From Trypanosoma brucei (taxonomy: Eukaryota), in assembly GCA_000002445.1 (NCBI GenBank), contig CH464492.1, forward strand, positions 96,001-160,000: DNA of 64,000 nt, written 5' to 3'. This document shows, in pieces, positions 1,635 to 62,575 of this stretch. The translations under genes and the position numbers were made by a program. The notes beneath the pieces were generated by a model. That model was not told where the DNA came from. It saw only the letters and a program-made list of their open reading frames with translations, and searched no databases. Position 1 is the first letter of the stretch. Every line of letters starts with the position of its first letter.

Positions 1635-1649
1635 ATAAGCAGCATTGCT
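1635..1649. repeat. Left copy of the 15-bp target-site duplication ATAAGCAGCATTGCT flanking ingi#1
   Basis: An identical 15-mer sits immediately after the ingi poly(A) at 6911-6925. Confidence 0.85.
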
Positions 1650-1657
1650 CCCTGGCG

Positions 1658-6910: not shown

Positions 6911-6925
6911 ATAAGCAGCATTGCT
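6911..6925. repeat. Right copy of the ingi#1 target-site duplication ATAAGCAGCATTGCT
   Basis: Identical to 1635-1649. Confidence 0.85.
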
Positions 6926-34920: not shown

Positions 34921-36411
34921 CTATCTTCCTTCCAACTTACAATCCGAAGATTTGCATTCTTTCTCTGGTTTCCCTTTGCATATCTCTGTTGTTGTTTCAG
35001 TTCCTACTCCCGTTTGAGTTTGTGTTACAGAAACTCCTTTTTCTTTCGCTTTTGTTGAATTATATTTGCATTTTTTGTCACTTTTTTCTTTCGAATCATA
35101 AGTACAGAAATTCTTGGCATCGCAATCAGCTTGGCTGGCATGGTGTGCTTCACATTCTGTTTTGAGGCTTGCTGCACTTGGATGTTGCGGGGTTGTCTGA
35201 GCTGCTGTTACGGAGATCGGTTGTGGTGCTGTAAGTGCCCTTAATGTTGCAGCAAGTCCATAAGTTGTGTCTCTGATGGCGACTATTTGGTTTGCTAGTA
35301 GCGCCGCTTGTGCTGTGGCTTGTTCGTTTTCGCGGAGCTGCTCCGTTAGGCTCTCCAGGTCGTCTAGCCATTTCAGCTTGCCTTTGTGCGTTGTCGGGTC
35401 GTTAGTATAGCCATTGAGCTTGACGCAGACGCCAGTGGCCGCCGTGCCGGTGCAGCTGCCATTTTCCGTTTCTCCAAGGTAGCCGTTGTTGTTGATTATC
35501 CTGATACTGTTTCGTACCTGTGTTGTGATTTGGCCTAGCCAGTTGCTTGTGATTGGCTTTTTCTCGGCGCTTGGGCATGCCTTAAGTAGATCGCCGGCGG
35601 CGGTGTCCAGGTTTTGTTGGCTTGCGCTGTTCCATTTGTTTGTGTTTGGCATGTTGCGGCCGCATGGCCTTGGTGGTGCGTCACCGTTGTCCTGAATACA
35701 AAGGCATGCTAGCGTCGCCGCTGCCGAAGTCGCTTTGTCATCGGCGCAGGTTGTCTGGCGGGTTTGGTCGTACCCTGTGAAAGCCTTCGCTGTTTCGAAC
35801 ACCGGTTCTGTTGCCTTTTCTCCGTATGCTGCTTTTAGTAACCGGTCTTTGATTTGTTGTGTCGTCAGAGCATTCGCTTTTGACAGCACCGTCAGCCGCT
35901 GTTTTTGTAGATTTAAAGCTAGTGCAAGCGCTTTTGCTGTTTCGATGTGCATCGCCTGTTTTTGGTGTGGTGCTAGGCTATCATGCGCTGCGTCCTTAAT
36001 GTGCTGTGGCGTTGTTTTTGGGTCGCCGGTTTGTTTGAAAGCGGCTACCCAGTGCTGCCAGGCTTCTTGCCAGTTGCTGTTGACGTCTGTGGGTTTTAAT
36101 GAAAAATATGCTGCTACTTTCTCTTTGTCAAAAGTCGCCGCTGCGTTTTTGAATTTGTCCCGCCATTCTTTGGGCGACGTTGTAAAATTTAATTCGTGCA
36201 GCTCGGTGATAGCTGTTGCCGGGTCTTGGGCCGCTGTTGGAATGTCGCCAGCTATTTTGGACGCACTTACAAGCGCACATAGTTGATGAAAATACAATGC
36301 GTTGTCCGCTTCAGCTACGTTGGCACTTATTGACGGGACGAATATAGCTGCTAGTGCTGATATGGCGATTACGGCCGGCACCTTGTCAGCTTTCATTTTC
36401 TCCTCCTTCAA
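34921..36411 (-). CDS. VSG-K, a B-type VSG (496-aa single ORF) with a degenerate GPI-signal region
   Basis: Starts MKEEKMKADKVPAVIAISALAAIFVPSISANVAEADNALYFHQLCALV and ends ...CKGKPEKECKSSDCKLEGR-stop. Downstream, ...KEFQFYRK-stop-ELALSIAASII looks like a decayed GPI signal in another frame. Confidence 0.8.
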   Translation of the reverse strand: MKEEKMKADKVPAVIAISALAAIFVPSISANVAEADNALYFHQLCALVSASKIAGDIPTAAQDPATAITELHELNFTTSPKEWRDKFKNAAATFDKEKVAAYFSLKPTDVNSNWQEAWQHWVAAFKQTGDPKTTPQHIKDAAHDSLAPHQKQAMHIETAKALALALNLQKQRLTVLSKANALTTQQIKDRLLKAAYGEKATEPVFETAKAFTGYDQTRQTTCADDKATSAAATLACLCIQDNGDAPPRPCGRNMPNTNKWNSASQQNLDTAAGDLLKACPSAEKKPITSNWLGQITTQVRNSIRIINNNGYLGETENGSCTGTAATGVCVKLNGYTNDPTTHKGKLKWLDDLESLTEQLRENEQATAQAALLANQIVAIRDTTYGLAATLRALTAPQPISVTAAQTTPQHPSAASLKTECEAHHASQADCDAKNFCTYDSKEKSDKKCKYNSTKAKEKGVSVTQTQTGVGTETTTEICKGKPEKECKSSDCKLEGR

Positions 36412-39416: not shown

Positions 39417-40963
39417 TCAAAAAGTGTTAAAATATATCAAATAGCAAAATTTTATCAAACGAAAAATTCTTTTTAAAGGGAGGGGTAAAATTTTAAAAAA
39501 GAAAAAAGCAAGCCAAAGAGGGGAAGCTTTGATGAGAAAAGAATTGCTTCCTTTGGTGTTTGTGGTTTTACCATCATTCTCTGCTTTCACCTCGTCTTCT
39601 TCATCTTTAGGTTTGCAAGTTCCTTTGTCTTCGGTACCTTCCCATTTGCATTTATTCTCTTTGCTGCACTCATCTTTCTTTTTGTCATTACAGATCGCTT
39701 CTGAGGTTTTATAAATTGTAACAATTGCTTTTTCTGTTTGTTTTTTTAGGATTTGGCCTTGCAAATATGTAATTGCCTTTGCAAAGGTTTCCGGTTGACA
39801 CAAAAAGCTTATTGGTTTCGCTTCGGCTGCGTCCCCGAGCTTGACAGTTAGCTCACTGCTGCGCAATTCTTTCAAGAATCTCTTATTGTATGCCTCCCCT
39901 TTGTCGCCGAAGTATCGGTTGAGGAGCCTGGTTAGCAATTCGCCCTTCGGCGCATCGCTTAGCTTGCTTGTGCCTGGGTTGTCAGATAGCAAGTTTCTAG
40001 CCAGTTCTGCTATCTGTGAGTCGCTCTTTAAGGCTTCGATTGTTAACGTAGCGAGGTCTAACTCTGGCTTGTTAAGTGTTACTTGCAGCTCGTGAAGGAC
40101 TTTGGCGATTTGCTTACCTGTGAGTTCGGCTGCAGGGTAGTCGTTCTCTGTTGCGGTCGCATCCTTGTTGCTTGCGTCGTCTAGTTTGTGGATGCTTGCC
40201 TGCGGTGCTTGTGCTTTGTTTTTTGGCTGTTTGCCTGGTTGTAATTTGAATGATTGTTGTGCTGTGCTGTCTGTTTTGCAGACTTGACCGTTGCCGTCGC
40301 TAGCTGTCGTCCAGCTGGCGCCGCCTCCCACCTTAAAGTTCAGAATTCTCTCCTCTACGTGTTTATCGGCGTCTAACTCATCGAGTAGAGTGATATGTGT
40401 AGCCGTCCGCAACAGCTGTCTGATGGTGTCGGCAGCCGCAGACTCCTTTGCTGTTGCAGTGCAGCTTGGGCCAGTTGTTGCGGCCGGGCTGATCTTGATC
40501 TCGCACGGGGCTGAGTTTGCCGTTACGGAAGTTGTGGCCGATGCTGGGATCGTTGCGGGGTGTGCCATGACGACACCCTGGACTCGGCTTAGATAGTTTA
40601 TTCGTGCTGCGATCACCGCTGATGCTTTTTCAGCTGCCGTTGTCGCCGCAACCCTGTTAGAAATCCGTTGAAGTGTCGCTTTTTCATCGATAGCCATAAG
40701 CAACTTGTATGCCTTTTTTGAATTTATGTCGTCGGTTGCGGCTGCCGCAAGCTTCCATGCGCACAGCTGTTTGTTTTTTTCTTCAACGCCTTCGTATGCC
40801 TTCAGTACTACGATTCGGATGGCTGTGACCGTGTTAGTTAGGAATTTTCGTTCCGTGCACTAGTTGTCGCTCTCAAAAGCAATTGTGTTTGTTTTGTCTT
40901 CACCTGCTGTCGATATTGTCGCCGCTAGCATAAAAGCCAGAGTTAGGCTTGCTATTGTAGTAA
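39417..40963 (-). pseudogene. VSG-M, a VSG pseudogene with an in-frame stop right after the signal peptide and stop-loss in the GPI signal
   Basis: My translation from the ATG near 40963 gives MITTIASLTLAFMLAATISTAGEDKTNTIAFESDN-stop. The ORF 39417-40703 continues ...NKCKWEGTEDKGTCKPKDEEDEVKAENDGKTTNTKGSNSFLIKASPLWLAFFFF and reads through the 3'UTR across the 16-mer (a T-homopolymer length difference). Confidence 0.8.
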
Positions 40964-42366
40964 TCATGTTTTAAGGTCGCTGCCTTAGGGACTAGCTTTG
41001 CTGTGACGGAAACGTTCCGCTATTTATCCATGTTGTGCGAAAATGAACACTTATAGACGTTACAAAATCGAATCTCTGACAAAAACACAATCAATATTTG
41101 TCATAAAAGAAATGCTGGTTTTTTCGTTTGCTGTGGTGTCAATAAAAAAGTGGCTAAAAAATTATTATATGCACATAATCACTATAAATGGCTTTTTTGC
41201 TCATATTTTCAACTCACAAAACGATTGGTTTCACTGTAGAACCTTACGGTCACCAAGATATATATTTTGAACCTAAATGTTGTTTTTCAACAATGTTCGT
41301 GCTTTACTGCTCAACCCATATCGATCTATATCTATATCTATTGCATCTATTATGTATGGTCGGTGTGTGGTTTTAATACCGGTTGGCTCCTGTAGCGTCG
41401 GTGTATCTTTAAAAACGGTATAACGGTGACGTTTTTCCGTATGCATGGCGTTGATTATTTTGCAGTGTTTTCCTGGTTTGTTGTCAGTCACTTTAACTTT
41501 TTAGGCAGTTGAGTCTCTAAATGGACTCATTTGTTTTCGCATTTGTGTTCATTCCCCATTATTTCTTCGTTAGTTTGTATTTTTATGTGAATTATTCGCT
41601 CTTTGAATGGGTTCAACTTTTTTCCACTGAACCAGCAGATGAGAGATGCAGCTTCATTTGAAACCTTTGTTACATCACACAAAGTTCCTCAGCTGTTTTA
41701 TGTGTTATTTTAAGTTGTTTTAACGTCTTTATTCTCCTCTTAAGCTTCATTGAAAGCCACTTATTTTCCATTCTTAAAAGTATTTCTTTCCTATAACATT
41801 ATGTTTTCTGCCACAAATGGTTGCTATTATTAATATATCTGATAAAAATAAGGCTTCGAAATTGCGTCAAACTTACTCAAGACATTCCTCCTTCCTATTT
41901 TATTTCTTTTACTTTACAGAAGAATATTATGATCGGCCATCCGATTTTAAACTGCAGTAATCAGCATTATCATCGCCGTATCGTCTATTCATTTTTGTGA
42001 AAAACAAGAAGCATCATCTTTTGCTGATGTATCATTTATTTCTATGTTGTGCTGTAGAATCCTCTATCGTTTCTTTCAATATTCTTTTCCCTTCTTTTAG
42101 TTTGATGCAGCTGTCATATCACTAACGCAGCAACCCCATTTTTTCTGCTCGATTTTCTTTACCTCTCCCTCATCATCTCCTCCACAAAAAATCTCTGCCT
42201 CTGTCATGACACGCATCGCCATTTTTGTGCATGAAAACTGCGCATACTCTACCTTCCTTTTTTCTTTTTTTAATGTTCCTCAATATAATATATTATTTCC
42301 ATCAAAGCCTTTACATTGTTTTTAGTAAATTTATTTTACGCCCATTTTGTCCTTACCACAGCTCCC

Positions 42367-42435
42367 ATAATAATACTAGTATACAGACGCACAACACACC
42401 CATATCACTACCATTATTATGACTATCATAACCTA
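42367..42435 (-). repeat. Degenerate 70-bp-repeat remnant upstream of VSG-M
   Basis: CATAATAATACTAGTATACAGACGCACAACACACCCATATCACTACCATTATTATG. Confidence 0.5.
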
Positions 42436-42639
42436 GTTAACATAAATAAAATAAGAAAACAAACAAATGAGAACACCACTCATTTTTCATACTCTTCCAC
42501 TTTACTACCTTTCACCTATTAACCATCATCATGCATATTTTACTTACTATAGTTATTTTACTTATCTAAATTACAATTACTAAAAACTTTCAAGTGTTAT
42601 AGAAAAATTATCACAAATGTAATACTGTCTTCAAAACAA

Positions 42640-42844
42640 AGCTCATAAAGGAAGAAACAATTAGTTACAAATTTTTTATTTACAATAATAGTGAAATCCT
42701 TACAGGAGTGACTTTCCCATTTTCACCTATTTTTACAATCCCTCTCCAGTTTACCCTTATATTTACCTGTTGTTGTTTCGGTTAACGTAGTTTGAGGTAG
42801 TGCTAAAAAGACTGCATTCTCGTTGATTTGCCATGCATTATATT
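42640..42844 (-). pseudogene. VSG 3'-end remnant (distal C-terminal domain, GPI signal and 3'UTR) truncated by ingi#2
   Basis: The minus strand reads ...CKDFTIIVNKKFVTNCFFLYELCF followed by a 3'UTR-like ...CAAAGCTCATAAAGGAAGAAACAATTAG. The sequence is the same type as the 3' flanks of the other VSGs at 28080-28170 and 50030-50110. The VSG body is absent on both sides of the ingi pair. Confidence 0.5.
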
Positions 42845-45800
42845 CCCTGCTAATGCCGGCCACCTCAACGTGGTGCCAGGGTCCAGTACCCCGTATCATC
42901 GGGGGAAGCGAAGAGCCAGCAGCGTTCCTTTCATGGGGAACAATGCTGTGCTCCGGCTACGGCATCATACAGCACAGGGATCAGCAGCGTCTTGCTGGGA
43001 CACCGTTCTTCATTTGTCGGTCCCTGGGCACGTGCCAGCGTGTCATCAGCAGTATCATACGCACTAAGATGCTGCTGTCCGGTGATGTGGAAGAGAATCC
43101 CGGCCCGTCGTTGCGCGGGATGCAGTGGAACTCCGCCGCGCTATCTCAAGGAAAGAGATTAGCACTCCACAAAACCCTTGTTGATGAGCGGATCGCCTTT
43201 TGTCTGTTGAGCGAGACAAGGATGACGCCTGGAGAGGCGGCTTGCTTTAGCGTTGCTGGCTACCAACATCACGGAATAGCTCGTAACTGCAAAGGAGGTG
43301 GTGTATCAATACTAGTGAGGGAGGACCTACCAGTCGAGACAGGTATGACCGTTGTTGGTCGCATTGAACAAGTGCATGGAACAATTCACCTTGCACGTGG
43401 AACGGCGCTGACTGTCACGTCGGCATACATCCCACCAAAACACACCTTCACGGAAACTGACCTAGATACGCTTCTGACGACTGACGGTGCCAAGCTCATC
43501 GGTGCAGACGCTAACGCACACTCGTTGGCATGGGATCGCGCGAGCTCACCAAATACCAAGGGTGAAAACCTCACACAGTGGTGCATTGACAACCAGTTTC
43601 TGGTCTGCAACACTGGTGAGTGCACCAGGTACGCACGCCACCACGGGGAGTCCACCCCTGATGTGACACTGTCAAGGAATTGCACAGTGTACGTGGACAT
43701 CGCTGTATTCTCCCGATAGCGATCACCATCACATATTTTTCGACGTTATCGTTGGAGACGGCACAGATGCACTGAGTTGCCCGCAGCTTCGAAAGCCCAT
43801 GTACGCATGGCTAAAAGCTGACTGGAGGAATTTCCGCCTCAAGGTTGACGAGCTCTGCAGGAAAATTGTTAGAGAGAAGAACGTCAACACCATGGAACAG
43901 AAATTGTGCTCCGCCATCCGCATTGCGACGAAGGTCTCCGTCCCCCGTGGCTGCAGAGCAACGCCACCACATTGGACACCTGAGCTCGCGAAACTCGATG
44001 AAGAGATCGCTGGATGAGGACCTTTCCACCGAAGGGAAAAGTTGGTAGCCACGCGTAAGCAGATTCTGGACCGTACCACAAAGAAGAGATGGAGCACGCT
44101 ATGCTCCAGACTTGCGGTGTCAGACTGCTGCAGTTGGCACATTGTCAAGAAGGTATATGCGCCACGACCACTAACCACATTGGCTGTACTAGTTGATAAC
44201 GCGGCCATCACGGACTACCGTCAAGCTGAGAGGTTCATTAAACTGTACTCGTCTTGCGCAAGAAGGCACCCCGACTCACACCCACCGGCACACATAAAGA
44301 CGATAGCGAGTGAGTTCAGTCCCATCACGATGGCTGAACTACGGAGATCGATCAAACTGCTACCGAGTGGATCCGCAGCCGGACCTGATTGCTTATACAA
44401 CAAGGCACTGCAACATCTCGGTAGAACAGCGCTGAATGTTGTTCTGAGGCTATTCAATGAGAGCCTACGAACGGGAGTCGTGCCGCCTGCATGGAAGACT
44501 GGTGTTATCATCCCCATCCTGAAGGCCGGAAAAAAGGCGGAGGACCTCGATTCTTACAGGCCTGTGACGCTCACGAGCTGTATCTGCAAAGTCATGGAGC
44601 GCATAATTGCCGCGAGGCTTAGAGACACTGTTGAGTCCCATCTGACACCGCAGCAATCAGGCTTTTGCCCCGGATGCTCAACGCTCGAACAACTCCTGCA
44701 CCTCCGCGCTGCCCTCTGCCGTCCCACGCACCAATATCGTACGGGTGCTGTATTCGTTGACTAAGAGAAGGGATTTGATACAGTAGACGACGACAAAATT
44801 GCGAGGGAAATGCACAGAATGAAGGTATCACCCTACATTGTGAAGTGGTGCGTATGATTTCTGAGTAACCGAACTGGCAGAGTGAGATTCAAGGAGAAGC
44901 TTTCCAGAAGCAGAACATTTGAGCGAGGAGTGCCACAAGGAACTGTCCTTGGCCCAATCATGTTCATTATTGTCATGAACTCGTTGAGCCAACGCCTTGC
45001 AGAAGTGCCGTTGCTGCAGCACGGATTCTTTGCAGACGACCTGACGCTACTTGCGAGGCACACAGAGAGGGATGTCATCAACCACACACTACAATGCGGC
45101 CTAAACGTGGTGTTACAGTGGTCAAAAGAGTACTTCATGTCTGTCAACGTAGCGAAAACGAAGTGCACACTCTTCGGGTGTATAGAGCGCCACCCCCTTA
45201 CATTACAATGGACGGCGAAAGAATAGGAGCTGACAGGACACCGAAGCTTCTAGGAGTAACATTCCAGTGTCTGCAAGGGATGGCAACGCATGCGGCAGAA
45301 ACGAGACGCAAGATGGACTTCCTACTACTGCAGATAGCAGCCATCTCAGCTTCTACATGGGGGCCAAGACGACAAGTACTGAGAGCTTTTTATCTAGCAC
45401 TCGTACAGGCACACACCATGTATGGCATTGAGGTATGGTACTGGGACGCTTCGGAACGAAGTCGCGACCTCCTTGCAGCAGCACAACACAAGGTCAGTCG
45501 CATCATAGCCGGCATACCGCATGGGACGCGCAAAGAGGACTGTCTGCTGGAAGCAAACCTCCTGCCACTCAAGACGGCTACTCTTGTGCGCAGCATGAAA
45601 TTCACGCTGATGTGTGGGTCACGAGGCGGATGTTTGCGGCGCAGTGCTGAGGAAGCATATCACAGCAAACACCCAGTCAGAGCCCTACATTCCCGCATCA
45701 TGCGGTCCTACCTTCACCTCCGCATTGAGCCACGCGAAAACCCACTAGAGACATCGACGCTCCGCCACAGCTGCCGACCGCTATTTCACACGCAGATAAA

Positions 45801-48089
45801 GCCTGTGTGCGCTGATGACTCTAACAATGTCAAAAGGGAGGCTTCCGAAAAGTGGATTGAACGGCATTTTGCACGGAGGGGGAAGGAGCCACCGCGACGA
45901 GAGCACTACGAATTGTGGACTGATGGATCTTTGTCCCTCGGTGAGAAGTTCGGAGCAGCTGCCCTGCTCTATAGAAACAACACGCTGATTTGCGCACCCA
46001 AGACCGGAGCAGGGGAACTCTCATGAAGTTACAGAGCGGAATGCGTAGCATTAGAGATAGGACTGCAACGGCTGCTGAAATGGGTTCCGGCATACAGAAG
46101 CACACCGAGCAGGTTGTCCATCTTCTCTGACTCGCTGTCAATGTTAACAGCATTGCAGACAGGCCCCCTAGCCGTAACGGACCCAATTCTGAGACGACTA
46201 TGGAGGCTTCTGCTTCAAGTTCAGAGAAGGAAGATACGTATCCGACTGCAATTTTTGTTTGGCCATTGTGGCGTGAAACGGAATGAGGTTTGCGATGAAA
46301 TGGCCAAAAAGGCCGCTGATTTACCACAGTTGCGAGACACATGGGTCCCCGACATCATTGCTTATGCGAAGCGAGTGCTTAGGTCGGAAGAAGTCCATGA
46401 GAACACTCATAGGTTTGGTATCACGTGCAACCACTTTCCAACAAAACATAAAGAAGAACTGACGAGGGAAGAAGAAACGGCACTGGCACGCTTTCGGGTT
46501 GGGTCTTCAAGACACTATGGATGGATGTTGCGAAAGATCAACCCGAGTGTGCCTCCACAGTGCAGATGGTGCAACCCGCAACATGCAGCGATAAGGCCAA
46601 CAATACAAACAGTCCCAACTGTTGCGACACGCACTCTTCAGAGAACCTCCGAATTGACCAAATGTACGGAATGTGATGCCACATACCAATGCCGCTCGAG
46701 TGCTGTAACGCATATGGTAAACAAACATGGTTTTGTGCGAGCTGATGCCCTCCGGAGGATCAAATACGGCGATGCAACACCTGCAGTGGACATCCCCCCG
46801 GAGCCCCCTCCAGTGGTGGCGATCGTTCCTCTACCATGGAGCACACAAGTCCCGATGAGACCACAGGTTCTTCATTGTACCATCTGTGCCTCCATATTCG
46901 CAGTGCCAGGCCGACTATTACACCACCTTAGAACAATACATGGCATAGGCAGCGGTAGTTGCCGCGTGAAAAGGCGACAAGAGAACGAGGACTCAGTGCA
47001 AGGAGATGGTAGCGTCCCAGCAGCGCCAGCCTCTCAGGATACACGGAAGCTGCCGTTTCAATGTGACCTGTGCGAGGCGAGCTTCGGTACACCCTCTTCC
47101 CTGTCACTACACAAGAAATTCAAACATAAGAGCATAGTGACGGAGGACGGTACTGTGGTGTTGCTGCAAATCCCTCGTAAGCGTGCCCTTTAGGGAAACG
47201 TTGACGTGCCGGGGAAGGGCGAGGTGCAGTGTGGTGTGTGCCAAAAAGTGCTCAGTTGCAGGGACTCCCTCATCTGACACTGTAAGGCTTTCCACAAAGG
47301 TGAGGAAGTGGAGCTTAAATGCAGCAAAAGCACAAAATTGTGTGCCACTGATTCCCCGCATACAAACGCATCCATGTTTGTGTGCCAGACATGCGGAAGG
47401 CAGTGTGCTAGCAAAACTGGCCTCACCCTACATCAAAAGAAGATGCACGGTATGAAGGTAGAGCGCGCTGTTACAAGCCAACGCGGCGACTGCGAAGAAA
47501 CGTCGCTGCACTTGATGAGCTGTCCCGGTTTGAAGGAGTTACGTGTCAGGTTTGCGGTAGAAGGTGTGTGTGCAGGATATATGTTTTTCTAAAAGGCTGG
47601 CGCAGTTTCTCATTGCGGTTGAACGGAGCCTGCCGCAGGTGAAGTCCTTACCTAATGTAACAGTCATACAACCCACTCTCCCTTCTACAACTTCCCCCCT
47701 TATTGCCGAGAGTGGAGCTAGCAGGAAAAGCACCAACCGCAGGAATACTCCAGACACCCTCAGAGACAGAGGGGGTATGCAGTCAACAAGCAACAAAAAC
47801 AGAAAGAGGGAGAGAGAATAATAAACGAATAACAAAAAACAAAACAAAAGGATTGCTAATTGACATCTTCGGGAGAGTCCGGGGTGGGAAGCTTCTCGCC
47901 CCATCTGCTGTATTCCGTTCAACTGCGGAGCTACAACAAAAAATTATAGAGTGTGTTAGGCTGAATAAAAAAGGGAGACTCTGCCACAGTCGTGAGACCG
48001 ATAGCATCTCAGGGCTCTACGGTGATGGCTGATGGCCGCGCCAGTGGGGGGAAACTTTCACGAAGGCACGAAGAAAATTCAAAAAAAAA
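42845..48089 (+). mobile_element. ingi: ingi#2, a full-length ingi retroposon (5245 bp) with an A9 tail, multiply frameshifted and with no target-site duplication
   Basis: The 5' end is CCCTGCTAATGCCGGCCACCTCAACGTGGTGCCAGGG and the element is about 98% identical to ingi#1 along its length. The ORF is split into at least six pieces (42823-43719, 44042-44764, 44882-45226, 45094-46026, 46114-47193, 47308-47592). The 2A motif is at 43084-43107. Confidence 0.95.
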
Positions 48090-48670
48090 TGCCGACGTGA
48101 CAGTCAGCGCAGTTCCACGTGCAAGGTGAATTGTTGCATGCACTTGTTCAATGCGACCAACAACTGTCATACCGGTCTCGACTGGTAGGTCCTCCCTCAC
48201 TAGTATTGATACACCACCTCCTTTGCAGTTACGAGCTATTCCGTGATGTTGGTAGCCAGCAACGCTAAAGCAAGCCGCCTCTCCAGGCGTCATCCTTGTC
48301 TCGCTCAACAGACAAAAGGCGATCCGCTCATCAACAAGGGTTTTGTGGAGTGCTAATCTCTTTCCTTGAGATAGCCCGGCGCAGTTCCACTGTATCCCGC
48401 GCAACGACGGGCCGGGATTCTCTTCCACATCACCGGACAGCAGCATCTTAGTGCGTATGATACTGCTGATGGCACGCTGGCACGTGCCCAGGGACCGACA
48501 AATGAAAAACGGTGTCCCAGCAAGACGCTGCTGATCCCTGTGCTGTATGATGCCGTTGCCGGAGCAAAGCAGTGTTCCCCATGAGAGGAACGCTGCTGGG
48601 TCTTGGCTTCCTTAGATGAGACGGGGTACTGGACCCTGGCACCACGTTGAGGCGGCCAGCATTAGCAGGG
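48090..48670 (-). mobile_element. ingi: ingi#3, the inverted 5' 580 bp of an ingi (RIME-left half, 2A motif and start of the AP endonuclease domain) abutting the ingi#2 poly(A)
   Basis: The minus-strand 5' end CCCCTGCTAATGCTGGCCGCCTCAACGTGGTGCCAGGGTCCAG lies at 48670. ORF 48009-48446 begins MLLSGDVEENPGPSLRGIQWNCAGLSQGKRLALHK. The fragment breaks at the equivalent of ingi position about 585, directly against the ingi#2 A-tail. Confidence 0.9.
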
Positions 48671-49697
48671 GGTTTGCCTCAAACATTCCAACATAGAAAG
48701 GTGTTAGGGGTGAATGAAACACGTATGGGCGGTGGTTTAGCTTTTGTGTCTTCTGTTGTAAATGTTCATTAAATTGTGTTCTGCTACCGCCGCCTCGTTT
48801 GTAACCTATTAATCTTCATTTAAAGTTCGTTTTTTATACCTTTTGCTCACTTCACTATAAAAATAAAACAAAAATTTTCTTTTCCTTAATCCCTTTTTCA
48901 CATCTGTTGAGTATAAGGGAAACTGAGGTTCACTGTTAATATAATGCATGGTAATACAATAAAGTTCTTGTTTCGTTTGTTTTCGGTATATTGATTTATA
49001 GTTCTGTTTATTTTTGGCTTTACCACATTGTTCAAGGTTTGTGCCATCATTAAGCTACTTTTGTGCCGCTGCTTCATCGTCTCAATGGTTCTGCATCAGT
49101 AAAAGTCTTACATAAATTGTGAATTCTTACCTTATTAATTTTTATATGTACACCCATATGGAATCTGGGGTGTATTACAATCAACTCATCTTCATCACTA
49201 AGCCATATTGCAGCTCTTCTATGTGATATTTTACGGACTTTTCAATTCTTACTCTTCTTTCGACGTTCATTGTAATCCATTGATAGTTCTTGTTTTAAAA
49301 TTCCCCTCCAAATAAAATTACTATATTTGTGCCTCACATTTTATACATTATTACTATATATGATGATATGAAAACTTTAATATAACCTCACACCTACACA
49401 CTTCTTTCTTCTTCCTGCTCTATTTTCCGCTTTTTTTCAGATAGTAATTAATTTACACCACCATAATCAAAATCAACAGTTACAGACATCACCTCCGTTG
49501 CATTTATCAATTTTTAAATCAAATAGCGTAGATAATTACTTCTTCTTTTCTTAATCTTGGTGCATATATTTTTCCACCGTGTTGTGTTGTATCGTATTGT
49601 GTCATTTCATTTTATATTTTCCCTCTTTTTCGCTTTCTTTTACTGCTTTATGAGATGACGTGCCACTCCATTTGAACGGCACACAATACTGGCTTGT

Positions 49698-49790
49698 CAT
49701 TACTATTATTCCTATTACTGCTTTTATTATAATATTCGTATATACTCACACTCACAACACTCTTCTATCATTATTATTATTATTATAACC
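49698..49790 (-). repeat. 70-bp-repeat unit bounding a cassette slot that now holds only ingi#2 and ingi#3
   Basis: CATTACTATTATTCCTATTACTGCTTTTATTATAATATTCGTATATACTCACACTCACAACACTCTTCTATCATTATTATTATTATT. Confidence 0.85.
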
Positions 49791-50019
49791 TTTACTATTA
49801 TTAGTAAAATCAGCGAAATAAACAAAATATAAAAGTATTTAATTATCACACCCTATTACCTTACTAGTTTACATTCAAAGTACACAATCATATATATTTC
49901 AAAAATTTATAATCTTGTCAAAAAGTGTCAAAATATATCATATTTTTAGAAAACTTCATACAATTGCAAATTTTCATAACATTTCATGTAATTCAGAATA
50001 ATCCTTAATCCCTTAAAAT

Positions 50020-51534
50020 TCTTCTAACCTCACAAAAAGCAGCAGAAACCATGCTGAGGGCGAATTGTTTGTTGACTAGAAAACTGTAATCTTTGCACTC
50101 TTTTCCATCATATTTTCAACCATCTTTGCAATCTTTCTCTCCTTTACCTGTGCACGGTGACTCTGTTTTCGAATATTTCCCTGTTTCTTGTTTTGCTGCT
50201 GCTTTTGCTGCGGCTTCTTTCGTTAAGGTACACTTTTTCCCTTTCTCATTTGTATCGACAAAATGGCACCCTGCCGTTTCGCCACACTTGGTTTTGTTTT
50301 CCCCTATGTCGTTGCAAATTTGTTCTGGACTCTTACCGTCAGCTTTAGCACCAAGGTTTTTTAGCTGCTTCTTTAGGTTTGTTATTTCCTTATTTAGGCT
50401 CGTAACTCGAGCTTGTTGATAGTGCCTGAGGAGCTTATCCAGCTCATCTAAATCGTTGATGGTGCTCAACTCTTTACCCTCGCTTTCTTTTCCGGTTAAA
50501 TCGATTACTTTTGTGTCCGGGAAGTCCTTGTATTCGGTTTCCATTTTGGAGCCAAAGGCTGATTGTACCGCATTTGCTTCGACCGGCGCATCTGGCCTTT
50601 CGAGCTTGCTGTCGCCTAGTACCTGTCGTCTGTAGGCATTCTTGAAGTCGTCGTCGCCTGCAAGCTGTGTCGGGCCTTTGAAGGCATATCCTTCGCTGAC
50701 GTCCTTTGTTGCGAGATAAGCGTCGTGTCCTGCTTTCATGGTTGCATGCTGTGCCGAAGCTGTTGTTATGGCGTCGGCGTGGTTGTTGTTGAAAGTTGTG
50801 CCAAGCTTGAACAGGCCACCTGCAAAAACGACGTCTCCTCCGAGATTGCCGCCTGTGTTTGTGTTGATGAGATGGCTGCTAGCTTTTGTTTCTGTTAGTG
50901 TGCAGCTTGCGCCGCCCTGTGTCGTTGTTGCATCGTCGGTCCCAGCTAGGTGGCTATTTGTTATGCCGTTTGGGCCGAACTGAGTTGTCGTCGCGAGCGA
51001 TGGTTCTATGGCGCTTGCTTTTGCGGCGCAGCCTTCCTCCGTCATTGGCTTCGGCGACCCTCCGGATCTTTTGCGCACATCGCCTCCGTCGATGAGACAG
51101 GCATGTGTCCCGTCTTCTGCGATTTGATTGGCCATGTTTACGAATTCTTGTATCGCGCCTTCAAACTTGGCGGCGTTTGCTATTGCAGTTGCACCTTTGG
51201 TTAGCGTGCTGCCGGTTGCCTCCTGTAAAGCCAGGTTTGCTTTTCGCATGTAGTATTCAACGAGTGCTAGATCGACTTTACGGTACTTACCGGATCTCTT
51301 CACTTCAATGTATATTTTGGTTTTGTAGGCTTGCGTTAGATAGTTGGCTGTCCCGGTGATCTTGTTTTTCACCATCTGCGCCGCTCTTTTCTGGACCTTC
51401 TGTAAGTCTACTGCTACTGCACATGCCGCTTTCCATGTTGTTTCCTTGATCGGGTTTGTCGACGCGGCTTCTGAATGAGTAACAATTAAAGATACCAGAA
51501 ACACTAGCAGTTGTAGGCCGCTGTTGCAGTGCAT
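50020..51534 (-). pseudogene. VSG-N, an A-type VSG with a premature TGA at a conserved C-terminal-domain Cys codon
   Basis: The 472-aa ORF 50116-51534 starts MHCNSGLQLLVFLVSLIVTHSEAAS and ends ...SPCTGKGEKDCKDG-TGA-KYDGKECKDYSFLVNKQFALSMVSAAF in the same frame. The expected Cys codon of DGCKYDG is TGA. Confidence 0.8.
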
Positions 51535-53149
51535 CGGTTTTTATCCTTGTTTTTCCTAGCTAAATGTTGATTTTGACTGTATAGGTGTGAAAATTGAAGT
51601 TTTGTTAAGGAGGTCTGCCGCGTTCTGCTGGTCTGCTGCATCCGCTGCTTTGGGTACTTTATTTTCCCTCTTTTTATCACATGCCAAATGAAAACGCGCT
51701 CCTACTCAGTGGACTGATTTCTGTTCAGTATTTCTTGAATGAAATACCGTAAGTCTTTAGGTCTCTGAAGTTTACTCGCGCTGTTAAAGCCAAACCTATG
51801 CGCATTATCTTTCAGCCTCACCTTAAAACAAGTGAAGGGCAAACCCCTGTAGAAAATATATTTCAAGGGCCGTGCGCATATGTGGTAAATGATTAAGTGA
51901 TATTGCAGCTTGGTTAGTCGTTGATTTTAAAGAAAAAATAAATGTTAGAAAGATGTACACAGCTTGCTGCATTTGCCATGGTGAGTAAAAGTATTTCAAT
52001 TAAGCCAAAGAACATCCACTGTTAATTCCAATCTTTACCATTATATATCTATATCTATGTCTAAAGAATATATTATTTGTAGTCGGTGTTCTTCTGTAAT
52101 GCGTTCAAATGCATGCTTTGTGGAAGCATATGCAATGACTATAAAACGCAGACACTTTTTTCTTACGCATAATCTTGAGAATTTTTACTGCTATCCTGTT
52201 TTATTGTTTGCCTTTTCAACTATTTCTTGGCAGTGTCAGTTTTATTTGAACTCATTTTTTTGAAATTTGTGATTTTACTTCATTAATGCCATTTCATTGT
52301 GTATTTTGATGCAAGTTAGCTTTTCCGTGGAAGTTGTTAACGTCTGGAATGTATACCAATAGGGGACTGTTAAAGGGTTGCTATTTATTCTTTTTACTCA
52401 TAAAAGTGCCATATAGAGTTATACATAAGATATTTTAAAACAGATTTAGCGATTTTATTATTCTCCTTCCCACGATAAAGTATTGTTAGTCGTGGTTTCA
52501 AAACCCTCCTTCACAAAATATTATATTGTTTCACACAAATTTTGGCCTTTATTATTATACCTGATTTGAGGAATAATTTGACATTATCTTACACAAACCT
52601 TGACGGCTGCTTCTGCTTCTCTTCACTGCCACTTCGGAGTTAGACGTTATAATCTACCACCAGACTAATAACTACAATAGGTGCTACTGTTGTTTTTTCG
52701 TCTATCATTTTCTTATAGAGCTTCGCAGCAGTATATTCTCCTGCATATTTTCTTTCTGTGTCGTGCTGTGGCATATTCTGTTATTTCATTCTGTGTTTTA
52801 GTTAATTTTTTTTCATTCTTTATCGCTGCTTCTTCATGTAACGTAGACATCCCATTTTGCCTTTACATTGAACTCTGTCTCTACCTTATATTCTCGTCCA
52901 CAATCTTCTCATATATGAAGAAACACCTCTTCGCGTTTTCGCCTGAGCATCCGCATATTCTATCTACCCCCTTCCTATCTCTTTCTGCTTTTACTTTAAT
53001 AATATTTCTCTTCTACTCCATTTTCATCTCGCTTACTATTCCACCCACTTACTCACTCAGTTACTTGCACAACACCTTTATCACTATTTTAAAGGCTTCT
53101 ATCCTTCCTTCCTTTTTATTCTCCGGCACGACACTACCAGCAGTGGTAG

Positions 53150-53215
53150 TATATGTTTATTCGCAGCACTTTTCTATTATTATAATTACTATCTTTACTA
53201 TTGTTATAGCCCTAA
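53150..53215 (-). repeat. Degenerate 70-bp-repeat remnant upstream of VSG-N
   Basis: An ATT-rich tract with a repeat-like core, followed by the conserved ...AGTAAAATTTCAAAAATAAAC motif. Confidence 0.45.
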
Positions 53216-53350
53216 ATTGCTGTTAGTAAAATTTCAAAAATAAACATAATAAAATAAATTAGAATATCATTTGTTTTTCATACCATATTACTATGCAACT
53301 TTACACCGATAACTCACTATGATACAACAACTTACCAAAATTTTAAAATT

Positions 53351-56300
53351 TCCCTGATTTCTGCCAGCCACACCATCGTGGTGCCAGGGTCTATTACTGC
53401 CTCCAGGAGGAAGGCAAGTGCACGCATTATACCTGATCTGACAGGATTTGGGAGTGAAAGAGGCTTTTGGAAACCACAGGAGCAAGAAGCAGAATTGGCA
53501 TTCTGGGATGAAGAAATATATTAGACTGCTCTTCTGCGCGTGCGAGCGCGCCTCGATTAGGATACATAGGCTTCTAATACTAAGCGGAGATGTTGAGCTC
53601 AACCCTGGTCCTCAGATAAGTGGAGCCCAGTAGAATGATGGAGGTCTCTCCCAGACGAAGCGGATCGCCTTAGAGAAGAAGCTTCACGATGATATGGTAG
53701 TCTTCTGTCTATCGCAGGAGACTCACTTGGCAGCAGAATAATATTATGCATTAAAAATCAGTGGATAACAACACATGGGAATGGAAGGCTTTCCACATGG
53801 TGTTGGGGTATCAATTTTTGTCAAAGATAGCACGGGAGTCTTCCAAGGTCCAAAGGAGGAGGAACTGCCGAAAAGAGTCTCGGCAACACTGATGTGTTCA
53901 ACTAATCTAATGTTAACTATAAAGTCAGTTTACTTCCAACAGAAGGAAGATTTCACTACCTCCACGCTTGATAGCCTTAAGAGCTAAACTAGAACACTGG
54001 TGATATGATCCTATACAACGCACATCACGAGTCATGGGACCCGCTTCACTCAAATGATACAGCGGGAGAATGCATTGTAGACTGGTGTCCACAAAATGAT
54101 ATCAAGATTGCAAATGATGGCACCCCAACAAGAATTCCTCACACGGAAGCCATGTCGTTTCCAGACGTTAGGATGTACAGATAATGCGAGGTCACAAGAT
54201 GTGAAGCAAGTCTCAGTTCAGATAGTGGGCACTACTGGATAATATTTGAGGTGTGCATTGGCATTGGTGTAGAAACGACTGCCATTTCAAAGCTACGAAG
54301 GGTACTGTATGCTTGGAATAAAGCAAATTGTCGGGAGTTTAGAAAAGTGTGTGACGTAAGAATGTTTAATAATTAAGGAAGTCTGGAAAGAATGTGGATG
54401 CCATGGCTGAGGCAGTGACTAAAGGCATTCGCACAGCAGCAAAGAAGAAAACAATACCGAATGGTAATGTAGTATCGCCACCGCTGTGAAGGCGAGAACT
54501 AACCAAACTGGACACAAAAATAAGATAGTGTACAAACGAGAAGCACAGATAGGTTCCCCTATATACAAGAGAAGGAAAGCTCTCGATGAAACATCCCTAC
54601 AACGGTGGAAAGAAAATGTGTCAAAGGTGTCGGTGATCAATACAAAAAATTGGAGTGTAGTCAAGTCGGTGTATGCACTAAGATGACTGACATCTCCGGT
54701 TATGGTAGTAAATAGTCACCCTCTAACACGCAGACAGAAAGCTAATAAGCTAGAGCAGATGTATAGAGAGAGCTGTTGACGAAACTATCAGATGCTCCTG
54801 CCATGAGTATACTTTAACCAGGAAGCAGGGAATTTGCACCAATAACGATGGCAGAACTTGAGACAGAACTGAAGGATCTCTCTTCAAGAGCTGCCTCCGG
54901 TAAGGACGATATACATTGCGAACAGTTAAAGCAATTAGGAAGCTACAGCAAGAAATATGTCCTCAAGCTCATTAACTCTAACCTACAGAAACACTGGGTG
55001 CCGGAGAAGTAGAAGCAGTGCGTTATTGTATCACTACTCAAACCCAACAAACCGGCCAAGTGTATGTTATCTTTCCAAACCATCACACTCACTTGCACCA
55101 TCTGTAAACTCATGGAGATGTTTGTAGAGAGAGAAATACGAAACACAGTAGTGTAAGCTGCAACTACAGCAGACTGTTTTCAACCAGGAAAAATCTATAT
55201 TGTCAGACGCCATGAGCACTCACAGAATCCGTGACACATAGGGTACCAAGAGAGAAAACTGCAGAGGTATTCACATATTATGCGAGGGCATTTAACTCTG
55301 TGGATCGCAGGTGCATAATAGGTGCACTAAAAAGATATGAGGTAGACATAAAACTTATTGTGTCGGTTGCAAATTTCCTGGAGGGATGGACTGCAGTAGT
55401 ACGAATAAACAACACCCTCTCAAATAAAATACAACTCACGTGTGGTGTTCCGCAAGGTTGCGTGTTGGGGACGTTGCTATTCATTATCGCAATAGACTCT
55501 CTCAGTGCGAAATTAAACTCCATACGAGCACTTAAACACTGCTTCTTCACGAACGAACTCACGATAGTATGCTCTAACACTGACCTAGAAGCTATTCGGC
55601 AGACGCTACAAACAGGATTAGATTGAATAGCGAGCTGTTCAGGAGAGGACTATATGAATGTGTCTGCGGAAATAACGGAATACACATTATTTGGGGTGAG
55701 ATACAGAGACTCGTTACGCCTATTTCTTGGACAGTACATGTTAAACGAGACGAGAAATCCCAGACTCCTTAGAGTGACAATGCAGCTACACAAGGGAGTA
55801 AGCAGACATGCACACACCCCACAAACAGCACTAAATATGAGATTAATGAAACTACAGGCTGTTGCATCACCCGAAAAGTGTTAAAAGTAAAGAAATTTTC
55901 CGAGTATTTTACTTAGCCTTAATCCTGGAAAAGGTACGCTATGCGATCGCAGCATGGTGGTTCAATGCTTATCCATCAGAGGAGGAGCTTGAACGAGTAC
56001 AAGAGCAGACGGTACATGTTATCGCTGGTATTCCAAAGTACGCGACTCAGTGAAATGTCATGAAGGATGCCCGTCTTCACAAGATAGATGATTTTGGTCA
56101 CATACGAGGAATAGAATACCATTTAATAAGGAGGGCGAACGGTAAATAATCAGCAGATACAGTGGAAAAAAGTTCCCACCCATTCGTCCGATACACACGC
56201 GACTGCAGAGTGTGTCACACTTTTGTGGGGAAGTGCACAGACCGCAGAAAAAACACACACGGTAAGTATATTGCAACTGGCGAGGAGACCGTACTTCAAC

Positions 56301-59000: not shown

Positions 59001-59175
59001 TATATAGATTGATTGAGGTGCGTGCAGGTAAACCTTATATTAAAGAATCTCCGCACCTTAAATCTTGTTCTCTTTGTCCTTTATTGTTTCGTTTCGCAAT
59101 ATTTTTTTGTTTTCTACATCAGTTACTCACATTGCACACATGCTACTTTTTTGTGCGCTTATATTTTGGCCGTCC

Positions 59176-59260
59176 ATTATTATTATTATTATTATTATTA
59201 CTGCTCTCATTATAATATTCGTATATACACACGCAAAACGGACTTTTATAATTATTATTG
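59176..59260 (-). repeat. 70-bp-repeat unit bounding the slot occupied by the DIRE
   Basis: CCATTATTATTATTATTATTATTACTGCTCTCATTATAATATTCGTATATACACACGCAAAACGG. Confidence 0.85.
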
Positions 59261-62391: not shown

Positions 62392-62433
62392 CTTATGATA
62401 ATATTAGTATACATACACACTCACAACACTCTC

Positions 62434-62471
<38 letters not shown>

Positions 62472-62575
62472 GTTATTATTATTGTTATTATTATTGTTAT
62501 TATTATTGCTATTACTGCTCTCATTATTATATTCGTATATACACACTCACAACACACACCTACCATTATTATTGT
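62392..62575 (-). repeat. 70-bp repeats (2 cores) with a greatly expanded (ATT)12-(ATTATTATTGTT)3 tract, upstream of VSG-O
   Basis: Cores ATAATATTAGTATACATACACACTCACAACACTCTCGT and CTCTCATTATTATATTCGTATATACACACTCACAACACACACC are separated by about 100 bp of triplet repeat. Confidence 0.9.

What the first reader, a model, noticed from the sequence alone, without database searches (positions are those of the whole stretch)
42640..49790. ingi#2 plus inverted ingi#3, with no target-site duplication, occupy a slot where only the last about 200 bp of a VSG survive, consistent with retroposon-associated deletion of a VSG
Between the 70-bp remnant at 42367-42435 and the next 70-bp repeat at 49698-49790 there is no VSG body. 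There is only a VSG 3' tail (C-terminal domain end, GPI signal, 3'UTR; 42640-42844). It abuts the 5' end of full-length ingi#2 (+), whose A9 tail runs directly into an internally truncated, inverted ingi 5' fragment (48090-48670, -). The flanks differ (ccatgcattatatt before ingi#2 versus tgccgacgtg after its tail), so no target-site duplication is present. That points to ectopic recombination between two ingi copies, twin priming, or template switching rather than a simple insertion. A deletion of about 1.4 kb of VSG coding sequence is implied.
Basis: inference. Interest (0 to 1): 0.7.

Follow-up and report, generated by a model that had tools for sequence, protein, structure and literature searches.

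The report
Nested inverted ingi retroposons replacing a VSG
In a Trypanosoma brucei surface-antigen gene array, one full-length ingi retroposon sits inside the stub of an older, oppositely oriented ingi, at a place where all but the last 80 codons of an antigen gene are missing; this is most likely an insertion that deleted its target DNA, an ordinary kind of subtelomeric damage with one unusual detail.

Summary
A full-length ingi#2 (42845-48089, +, A9 tail) runs directly into the inverted first 582 nt of another ingi (ingi#3, 48090-48670, -). On its 5' side it abuts an 81-codon VSG C-terminal remnant (42600-42844, - strand; Pfam PF10659). It has no target-site duplication (TSD), and no VSG body lies between the two 70-bp repeats.

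Twin priming is rejected. The inverted piece lies 3' of the poly(A) tail and differs from ingi#2's own 5' end at 21 of 582 positions.

Ten reference ingi 5' flanks all carry a GG about 7 nt before the first-strand nick. The poly(A) junction inside ingi#3 has this GG at the right distance. The VSG-side flank has no GG.

Best reading (about 0.45): ingi#2 retrotransposed into the older ingi#3, and its 5' end was joined to a distant upstream break. That would remove 4.66 kb of ingi#3 plus about 2.2 kb of the VSG cassette, as in L1-mediated deletions. Main rival (about 0.3): recombination between two ingi copies.

No orthologous locus could be retrieved. A 14-nt inverted repeat bounding the block is unexplained. 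The case is a new example of known phenomena, of modest interest.

The parts
42348..42429 (-). Degenerate 70-bp repeat remnant. It is the downstream boundary of the damaged cassette and lies upstream of the next VSG (39417-40703, -).
   Evidence: 72-74% blastn matches to the 70-bp repeat family at 62379-62572.
42436..42596 (-). Degenerate VSG 3'UTR of the remnant, with no recognisable 16-mer.
   Evidence: It lies between the stop at 42597-42599 and the 70-bp remnant. The 16-mer scan found none here.
42597..42844 (-). VSG C-terminal remnant: 81 codons plus the stop codon, with one internal stop and a degenerate GPI signal.
   Evidence: Translation ..EYNAWQINENAVFLALPQTTLTETTTGKYKGKLERDCKNR*KWESHSCKDFTIIVNKKF... 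Pfam PF10659 E=1e-6. tblastn alignments to VSG C-termini reach the junction.
42831..42844 (+). 14-mer CCATGCATTATATT, abutting the ingi#2 5' end. It is native VSG sequence (encodes YNAW) and forms the left arm of an inverted repeat.
   Evidence: (I3).
42845..48089 (+). ingi#2: full length (5245 bp), decayed (at least 3 frameshifts plus internal stops), A9 tail at 48081-48089, no TSD.
   Evidence: blastn against ingi#1 is 96.4% identical over the full length. tblastn of the intact 1656-aa ingi protein P0054 aligns in 4 frame-shifted pieces at 89-94% identity. Flanks.
48090..48670 (-). ingi#3: inverted 5' stub, ingi positions 1-581/582. Its 3' 4.66 kb is absent.
   Evidence: 96.4% identical to ingi#2 positions 1-582 on the opposite strand. 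It has 13 private and 5 shared derived substitutions. Its own 5' flank has the GG motif at -19.
48078..48103 (+). Poly(A)/target junction. The reconstructed target ..GGTGGGATGT(A)|TGCCGACGTGAC fits the first-strand nick context of other ingi insertions.
   Evidence: The GG has its first G at -8/-7 from the first non-A base, which is the modal position in the reference flanks.
48671..48937 (-). 267 bp of unique non-coding DNA flanking the ingi#3 5' end. It ends in the presumptive ingi#3 target site ..GTTGGAATGT|TTGAGGCAAACC.
48938..48951 (+). AATATAATGCATGG, an exact reverse complement of 42831-42844. The match extends to 22 nt at 86%, through 48959. This is the right arm of the inverted repeat that bounds the 6.1-kb block. 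Unexplained.
   Evidence: I3.
48952..49693 (-). Unique AT-rich DNA between the 70-bp repeat and the block, presumed to be the upstream region of the lost VSG. It has no VSG or retroposon coding similarity.
49694..49800 (-). 70-bp repeat, the upstream boundary of the damaged cassette. It lies just 3' of VSG 50116-51534.
   Evidence: 80-90% matches to 70-bp repeats at 12 other places in the window.

Best explanation
Proposed sequence of events:

1. An ingi (ingi#3) first inserted, in - orientation, into the cassette that lay between the 70-bp repeats at 49694-49800 and 42348-42429. This was a normal insertion at ..GTTGGAATGT|TTGAGGCAAACC.
2. Later, a second ingi RNA (ingi#2) was reverse-transcribed from a nick made by the ingi endonuclease in the antisense strand of ingi#3, between its positions 581/582 and 583. 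This is target-primed reverse transcription and explains why the A9 tail is fused directly to ingi#3.
3. The usual second nick about 12 nt away did not complete the insertion. Instead, the finished full-length cDNA was joined to a distant upstream DNA end inside the C-terminal coding region of the VSG.
4. Everything between was lost: ingi#3 positions 583-5245, its tail and TSD, and about 2.2 kb of cassette DNA, including roughly 1.25 kb of VSG coding sequence. The total is about 6.9 kb. Because of this loss there is no TSD.

Shown: the anatomy, the absence of a TSD, the fit of the nick-site motif at the 3' junction, and its absence at the 5' junction.
Inferred: the order of events, the single-step deletion, and that a VSG body was there beforehand.
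For: - Both ends of ingi#2 are exact element ends (nt 1 and the poly(A) tail). The flanks are unrelated: VSG tail on one side, ingi#3 antisense on the other.
- No copy of the expected TSD (ATGCCGACGTGAC..) exists outside ingi-internal sequence. No second copy of the ingi#3 TSD exists in the window.
- In 10 of 10 reference ingi 5' flanks a GG lies with its first G at -23..-16 from the element start, and in 6 of 10 at exactly -19, which is 7 nt before a 12-nt TSD. The flanks are window ingi#1 and ingi#3 plus eight T. b. equiperdum copies in L001-L004, L008 and L009. The background rate is 0.18-0.28.
- The reconstructed target at the ingi#2 poly(A) junction, GGTGGGATGT(A)|TGCC, has GG at that distance.
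- The ingi#2 5' flank has no GG anywhere in its last 30 nt.
- In the related L1Tc, TSD-less elements are reported to keep the upstream motif (PMC5814959), as recombinants should. ingi#2 does not.
- The pattern matches the hallmarks of L1-mediated deletions: poly(A) tail plus endonuclease-type site at the 3' breakpoint, no TSD, and the 5' end joined to an upstream break (PMC7058536).
- ingi#2 divergence from the consensus is even along its length, so there is no sign of a chimera.
Against: - The motif was derived here from only 10 flanks. It could not be checked against the published Tbingi consensus (Bringaud 2004 and 2009 are not held).
- Two of the reference flanks (L002b, win1) carry the GG off the modal position. 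The likelihood ratio against a genuine 5' target site is therefore only about 5-12.
- TSD-less ingi are common: L002b and L003 among the nine other full-length copies sampled. ingi/RIME recombination is documented (PMC2854126), so the prior favours recombination.
- To my knowledge, insertion-coupled deletions have not been described for ingi, and T. brucei lacks classical end joining (own knowledge).
- There is no microhomology or filler at the 5' junction to mark end joining.
- The 14-nt inverted repeat that ends exactly at the 5' junction is not explained by this model.
- No pre-insertion or orthologous allele was available.
Confidence: 0.45

Rival explanations
1. Homologous recombination between two directly oriented ingi copies. 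Copy A had inserted into the VSG C-terminal region (TSD ATGCATTATATT or similar). Copy B had inserted into inverted ingi#3 at position 582. Unequal or ectopic crossover inside the 5.2-kb homology left one chimeric ingi (ingi#2), carrying A's 5' flank and B's 3' flank. The interval was either deleted or, if the exchange was ectopic, the flanks were swapped between two subtelomeric loci.
For: - ingi#2 has exact element ends and no TSD, which is the classical signature of inter-element recombination.
- TSD-less full-length ingi are frequent in the sample: L002b and L003.
- About half of L1Tc/NARTc elements lack TSDs (PMC5814959).
- T. brucei repair is dominated by homologous recombination (own knowledge).
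- The 3' junction motif is equally expected under this model.
Against: - It needs three ingi insertions within one cassette, or an ectopic partner, plus a crossover.
- The 5' flank should then be a genuine endonuclease target. It is the only one of 11 flanks with no GG at -23..-16, against a background absence of 72-82%.
- There is no step in divergence along ingi#2. This is a weak argument.
- No reciprocal product is present in the window.
Confidence: 0.3
2. The 6.1-kb block (ingi#2 + A9 + ingi#3 stub + 267 bp, 42845-48937) arrived as one unit. One version is a cDNA of a read-through (3'-transducing) transcript from another locus where ingi#2 was already nested in ingi#3, captured at a double-strand break in the centre of a short palindrome (T|T') that an earlier deletion had left at the head of the VSG fragment. 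The other version is a single aberrant retrotransposition that combined insertion, local inversion with a 14-nt staggered cut, and deletion.
For: - The block is bounded exactly by a perfect 14-nt inverted repeat, 42831-42844 and 48938-48951, extending to 22 nt at 86%.
- The left arm ends at ingi#2 nt 1.
- I estimate roughly 1% for an arm of one of the 8 short inverted pairs in this 7.6 kb ending exactly at one of the junctions. This figure is my own.
- The length equals an ingi TSD (12-15 nt; PMC3820030).
- The left arm is native VSG sequence, so the right arm would be the copy.
- The 5' flank has no endonuclease motif, and there is no poly(A) at the right end of the block. Both fit an endonuclease-independent capture.
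- The ingi 5' end is defined at the RNA level by a ribozyme that releases the RNA from co-transcripts (PMC4035085 abstract).
Against: - It requires several rare steps.
- There is no independent evidence that 48671-48937 is foreign to this locus.
- 14-mer exact matches are not rare in this AT-rich DNA: six for the 1-kb flank against 210 kb.
- A two-step in situ history explains everything except the repeat.
Confidence: 0.1
3. Assembly artefact. The two flanks of ingi#2 belong to different genomic ingi copies and were joined in silico through the 5.2-kb repeat.
For: - ingi is a high-copy 5.2-kb repeat at 95-97% identity.
- Subtelomeric arrays are hard to assemble (PMC2854126).
- The strain and read type behind the window are unknown.
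Against: - Both junctions are exact element ends, and the 3' junction has a biological nick-site context.
- ingi#2 has an even, copy-specific divergence of about 3% along its whole length with no switch.
- The flanking VSG 39417-40703 is 100% identical to an independently deposited T. brucei VSG.
- An in silico chimera would also be expected to keep a motif-bearing 5' flank.
Confidence: 0.08
4. Twin priming or an intramolecular template switch of a single ingi RNA produced the inverted piece.
For: An inverted ingi segment is directly fused to ingi#2.
Against: - The inverted piece lies after the poly(A) tail, not at the 5' side.
- It repeats positions 1-582, which ingi#2 also contains.
- It differs from them at 21 of 582 sites, 13 of them private to the stub.
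- It has its own motif-bearing 5' flank.
Confidence: 0.01

Closest known systems
L1-mediated (insertion-associated) target-site deletions of human LINE-1 (Gilbert 2002 and Symer 2002, from memory; Rodriguez-Martin 2020, PMC7058536, read)
   Same: - Poly(A)-tailed element whose 3' breakpoint sits at an endonuclease-type site.
- No TSD.
- The 5' end is attached to a distant upstream end.
- Kilobases of target DNA are lost.
   Different: - The element is an APE-type ingi-clade retroposon of a trypanosome, and it is full length. Most L1 cases are 5'-truncated.
- There is no microhomology or filler at the 5' junction.
- The host lacks classical NHEJ.
- The event is old and fixed, and is inferred without a pre-insertion allele.
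TSD-less ingi/RIME and L1Tc/NARTc elements attributed to inter-element recombination (PMC5814959; PMC2854126)
   Same: Full-length element with exact ends and unrelated flanks, in a recombination-prone subtelomere.
   Different: Those elements are reported to keep the conserved upstream target motif. ingi#2's 5' flank does not have the motif seen in all 10 reference flanks.
Nested retroposon insertions and tandem or adjacent ingi/RIME arrangements (PMC3820030)
   Same: One ingi inserted into another at a site that fits the endonuclease preference.
   Different: Described arrangements are head-to-tail tandems separated by a TSD. Here the host element is inverted, is truncated at the insertion point, and the TSD is missing.
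VSG gene fragments in silent subtelomeric arrays (Berriman 2005; Marcello and Barry 2007; own knowledge, papers not read here)
   Same: A decayed VSG C-terminal fragment with a 3'UTR, followed by a 70-bp repeat, inside a VSG array.
   Different: Here the truncation point coincides to the base with the 5' end of a retroposon.

Membership tests
Tbingi (ingi4 subclade, ingi/L1Tc clade non-LTR retroposon) | About 5.25-kb element with the conserved 77-79 nt 5' signature | tested here: met
   ingi#2 is 5245 bp. Its first 250 nt are 92-97% identical to 9 other ingi copies, including T. b. equiperdum ones. The 5' end is CCCTGCTAATGCCGGCCACCTCAACGTGG. No Rfam family matched.
Tbingi (ingi4 subclade, ingi/L1Tc clade non-LTR retroposon) | Encodes an APE endonuclease - reverse transcriptase - RNase H - zinc finger polyprotein | tested here: met
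   The intact 1656-aa protein P0054 (Pfam Exo_endo_phos_2, RVT_1, RNase_H) aligns over residues 1-1656 to ingi#2 at 89-94% identity. The alignment is in 4 frame-shifted pieces, so the copy is decayed.
Tbingi (ingi4 subclade, ingi/L1Tc clade non-LTR retroposon) | 3' poly(A) tail | tested here: met
   A9 at 48081-48089.
Tbingi (ingi4 subclade, ingi/L1Tc clade non-LTR retroposon) | 12-bp (here 12-15 bp) target-site duplication (PMC3820030) | tested here: not met
   The flanks ATGCATTATATT and TGCCGACGTGAC are unrelated. ingi#1, L004 and L009 do have TSDs. This is a property of the insertion event, not of the element.
LINE insertion-mediated target deletion | Poly(A) junction at an endonuclease-type nick site | tested here: met
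   GG lies 7-8 nt before the junction, as in 10/10 reference flanks. The motif was derived here from a small sample and not checked against the published consensus.
LINE insertion-mediated target deletion | No TSD, with the 5' junction at a site unrelated to the nick site | tested here: met
LINE insertion-mediated target deletion | Demonstrated loss of target DNA relative to an empty or pre-insertion allele | not testable with these tools
   No orthologous locus could be retrieved. Three window VSGs are absent from the contig index. The closest homologues are isolated VSG records without genomic context. The loss is inferred from the missing 4.66 kb of ingi#3 and from cassette spacing.
LINE insertion-mediated target deletion | Microhomology or short filler at the 5' junction (seen in most L1 cases) | tested here: inconclusive
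   There is no overlap between ..TATATT and CCCTGC. The 14 nt next to the junction recur inverted 6.1 kb away, but they appear to be native VSG sequence.
Recombinant (chimeric) ingi from two insertions | Both flanks are genuine, independent insertion sites, with the upstream motif retained at the 5' flank | tested here: not met
   The 3' flank fits. The 5' flank has no GG within 30 nt, whereas 10/10 reference flanks have it. The sample is small, so this lowers the model but does not exclude it.
Recombinant (chimeric) ingi from two insertions | A reciprocal product or parental elements present in the genome | not testable with these tools
   The window holds only three ingi hits. No T. brucei genome of this strain is searchable.
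Twin-primed (5'-inverted) LINE insertion | The inverted segment lies at the 5' side of the same element, derives from the same RNA, and is flanked by one TSD | tested here: not met
   The inverted piece is 3' of the poly(A) tail, duplicates positions 1-582, differs at 21 sites, and has no TSD.

The most novel reading that the evidence does not exclude
The whole 6.1-kb block (ingi#2, the ingi#3 stub and 267 bp of flank) is bounded by a perfect 14-nt inverted duplication of TSD length. This may record a single aberrant ingi retrotransposition that combined insertion with inversion and deletion of target DNA. Alternatively, it may record the capture of a 3'-transducing ingi cDNA at a palindromic break. 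Either would be the first sequence-level evidence that ingi retrotransposition itself, rather than later homologous recombination, remodels and destroys genes in the T. brucei VSG archive.
Probability: 0.12. Interest if true: 0.55.

Novelty: new member of a known kind. Interest (0 to 1): 0.3.

Why it matters
The silent VSG archive is the raw material of trypanosome antigenic variation, and most of it consists of pseudogenes and fragments. How those fragments arise is usually put down to recombination and decay.

A case in which the truncation point of a VSG coincides to the base with the 5' end of a retroposon, and in which the other end shows a target-primed junction inside an older retroposon, suggests another route. 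Retrotransposition itself may delete archive genes, as L1 does in human cells, in an organism without classical end joining.

The practical gain is a simple, testable signature that could be scanned genome-wide: poly(A) junction with the nick motif, no TSD, and a motif-less 5' flank. As a single old event without a pre-insertion allele, it remains an anecdote.

Tried and rejected
1. Orthologous locus. Exact look-ups of three intact window VSGs found nothing. Homology searches with both flanking VSGs returned only context-less VSG records: VSG 1457 at 96% identity, and A0A1V0FZ46 at 100%. No comparison with another strain was possible.

2. Published Tbingi target consensus. Bringaud 2004 and 2009 are not held, and the open papers give only the ingi6 and L1Tc patterns. 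I therefore derived a motif from 10 flanks fetched through ingi proteins of T. b. equiperdum and T. b. gambiense.

3. VSG N-terminal remnant right of the block. None was found.

4. Retroposon or DIRE coding remnants in the flanks. None was found.

5. Reading 48671-48951 (+) as the inverted continuation of the VSG. Its translation is full of stops and not VSG-like. Rejected.

6. Several inversion, fold-back and 5'-transduction schemes to explain the 14-nt inverted repeat. Each needs either a second breakpoint exactly at an element end or flanks that are not observed. None was adopted.

7. Chimera test by divergence profile. The profile is flat and uninformative.

8. Rfam scan of the region. No hits.

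9. Second copies of the expected TSDs. None was found.


Full report
CONTEXT

The window is a Trypanosoma brucei-group subtelomeric VSG array. About a dozen VSG ORFs lie on the - strand. Each is followed, at lower coordinates, by a 3'UTR and a 70-bp repeat. The two VSGs that flank the finding have T. brucei VSGs as best hits: 96% identity to VSG 1457, and 100% to A0A1V0FZ46. Spacing from one 70-bp repeat to the next is 2.5-6.4 kb in cassettes without retroposons, with a median of about 3.7 kb (coordinates).

OBSERVATION

blastn of the candidate element against the window gives three hits:
- ingi#1 at 1650-6908 (+).
- ingi#2 at 42845-48089 (+), 5245 bp.
- The reverse complement of ingi positions 1-582 at 48670-48089 (ingi#3), 96.4% identical to ingi#2.

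ingi#2 starts at the canonical CCCTG and ends in A9. The next base begins ingi#3 antisense, with 1 nt of ambiguity.

The 5' flank is ...TTGATTTGCCATGCATTATATT and the 3' flank is TGCCGACGTGAC, so there is no TSD. As a positive control, ingi#1 has a 14-15 nt TSD, and L004 and L009 from T. b. equiperdum have 13-14 and 12 nt TSDs.

The - strand of 42600-42844 translates to a VSG C-terminal remnant:

EYNAWQINENAVFLALPQTTLTETTTGKYKGKLERDCKNR*KWESHSCKDFTIIVNKKF...

- It passes Pfam's threshold for PF10659.
- It aligns with other VSG C-termini up to the very junction.
- Nothing VSG-like or retroposon-like is detectable in 48671-49693.

Three corrections apply:
- The tail's coding part reaches down to 42597.
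- The 70-bp matches are at 42348-42429 and 49694-49800.
- The missing cassette DNA is about 2.2 kb rather than 1.4 kb: 7.35 kb of repeat-to-repeat spacing, minus 5.83 kb of ingi, leaves 1.5 kb against a median of 3.7 kb. A further 4.66 kb of ingi#3 is also missing.

WHAT THE TWO ingi ARE

ingi#2 is a decayed copy. The intact 1656-aa ingi protein aligns to it in four frame-shifted pieces at 89-94% identity. Its divergence from a consensus of ten other copies is about 3% and even along its length.

The stub ingi#3 differs from ingi#2's own first 582 nt at 21 sites: 8 private to ingi#2 and 13 private to ingi#3. The two share 5 derived changes that are absent from six other copies. They are therefore separate copies of one sublineage, not two parts of one cDNA.

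This, together with the position of the stub 3' of the poly(A) tail, rules out twin priming.

TARGET-SITE EVIDENCE

Elements of the ingi clade make 12-bp TSDs.

I therefore fetched nine loci with ingi copies from T. b. equiperdum and T. b. gambiense, through members of the ingi protein cluster. I compared ten full-length 5' flanks:
- All ten carry a GG whose first G lies at -23..-16 from the element start.
- Six have it at exactly -19, which is 7 nt before a 12-nt TSD. Examples: GGATGAT|TTTTCC.., GGATGAA|TTTATT.., GGAATGT|TTGAGG.., GGAAAAT|ATTCAT...
- The background frequency of such a GG is 0.18-0.28.

Applied to the two ingi#2 junctions:
- Poly(A) junction: the missing upstream half of the target was reconstructed from ingi sequence as ..TTTTGGTGGGATGT(A)|TGCCGACGTGAC. 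It has GG at -8/-7, the modal place.
- 5' flank: CATTCTCGTTGATTTGCC ATGCATTATATT contains no GG at all.
- ingi#3's own 5' flank has the motif at -19, so ingi#3 was a normal insertion.

The poly(A)/ingi#3 junction thus looks like a real target-primed insertion into the antisense strand of a pre-existing ingi#3. The VSG/ingi#2 junction does not look like a normal endonuclease target.

MECHANISM

The anatomy matches L1-mediated deletions. Reverse transcription is primed at an endonuclease nick. The cDNA then pairs with or is joined to a 3' end from a break further upstream. The DNA in between is lost and no TSD forms (PMC7058536).

Applied here, one event after the ingi#3 insertion removes about 6.9 kb in total: ingi#3 positions 583-5245, its tail and TSD, the rest of the upstream region, and the VSG down to its last 81 codons.

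The main rival is recombination between two direct ingi copies, one in the VSG and one nested in ingi#3.
- For it: ingi/RIME recombination is documented (PMC2854126). TSD-less copies are common, with two in my sample of nine other full-length copies and about half of L1Tc (PMC5814959).
- Against it: such recombinants are expected, and for L1Tc reported, to keep the upstream motif, which ingi#2 lacks. It also needs more events.

Weighing a prior that favours recombination against a likelihood ratio of roughly 5-12 from the motif, I put these figures on the alternatives:

| Explanation | Confidence |
|---|---|
| Insertion-coupled deletion | about 0.45 |
| Recombination between two ingi | about 0.30 |
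| Complex single-unit event | about 0.10 |
| Assembly mis-join | about 0.08 |
| Twin priming | about 0.01 |

AN UNEXPLAINED DETAIL

The 14 nt that abut the ingi#2 5' end (CCATGCATTATATT, 42831-42844) recur as an exact reverse complement at 48938-48951. That is 267 bp beyond the ingi#3 5' end. The match extends to 22 nt at 86%.

- Short inverted matches are not rare in this AT-rich DNA: 8 pairs in 7.6 kb, and six exact 14-mers for the 1-kb flank against 210 kb.
- I estimate only about 1% for an arm ending exactly at a junction.
- The left copy is native VSG sequence. It encodes YNA(W), which aligns with KYNST of the window VSG 34921-36411.
- The length equals an ingi TSD.
- I tried inversion, fold-back, 5'-transduction and palindrome-capture schemes. 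None is both simple and consistent with all the flanks.

I report this as unexplained. It is the basis of the more novel reading.

LIMITS

- No pre-insertion allele, reciprocal product or raw reads could be examined.
- The motif rests on ten flanks.
- The VSG tail is itself decayed: it has an internal stop, a degenerate GPI signal and no 16-mer. The event is therefore old, and the lost gene may already have been a pseudogene or a fragment.

VERDICT

Twin priming is wrong. The deletion is larger than stated.

The best-supported mechanism is retrotransposition into an older inverted ingi with loss of the target DNA. This is a new example, in a trypanosome retroposon, of a phenomenon well known for LINE-1. 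It is of modest interest unless confirmed genome-wide.

Noticed in passing
window 53361-56924 (+): The next array slot (51535-59181, 9.4 kb between 70-bp repeats) holds a degenerate ingi-related element (DIRE-like). It is only 26-41% identical at protein level to ingi proteins, aligns in many frame-shifted pieces, and is invisible to blastn with ingi#2. The 64-kb window therefore carries four retroposon insertions.
   Followed up: partly
window 42831-42844 and 48938-48951 (22 nt: 42823-42844 / 48938-48959): A perfect 14-nt inverted repeat (86% over 22 nt) bounds the ingi#2 + ingi#3 stub + 267-bp block. Its left arm ends exactly at ingi#2 nt 1, and its length matches an ingi TSD. No satisfactory mechanism was found.
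   Followed up: yes
window 42845-43426 vs 48089-48670: ingi#2 and ingi#3 share 5 derived substitutions (positions 6-8 GCG>CTA, 215, 504) that are absent from six other ingi copies. The two neighbours therefore belong to one sublineage, or have exchanged sequence by gene conversion.
   Followed up: partly
5' flanks of ingi in window (1650, 48670) and in L001-L004, L008, L009: A GG (often GGA[T/A]) lies about 7 nt before the first-strand nick in 10/10 flanks, and the TSD usually starts with (A)T. This resembles the ..TATG^A pattern quoted for L1Tc (PMC5814959). The motif was derived here and not checked against the published Tbingi consensus.
   Followed up: partly
window 1635-1649 and 6909-6925: ingi#1 is flanked by a 14-15 nt direct repeat, (A)TAAGCAGCATTGCT, which is longer than the 12 bp stated for Tbingi. 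Its ORF is nearly intact, aligning in one frame to the 1656-aa protein at 96.6% identity.
   Followed up: no
L002 16902-22127 (-) and L003 9993-15241 (+) (T. b. equiperdum GCA_003543875.1): These two further full-length ingi copies have no recognisable TSD. L003 keeps the upstream GG motif at -19, while L002b has it only at -25..-23.
   Followed up: no
window 50040-50118 (-): The ORF of the right-hand neighbour VSG (50116-51534) stops just before its GPI-signal region. That region..CKDYSFLVNKQFALSMVSAAF.., continues in another frame by my reading, so this VSG is probably a frameshifted pseudogene. Several other array VSGs also have aberrant C-terminal ends.
   Followed up: no
window 39417-40703 (-): This VSG is 100% identical over 94% of its length to a deposited T. 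brucei VSG (UniProt A0A1V0FZ46, P0060). That could identify the strain of origin.
   Followed up: no
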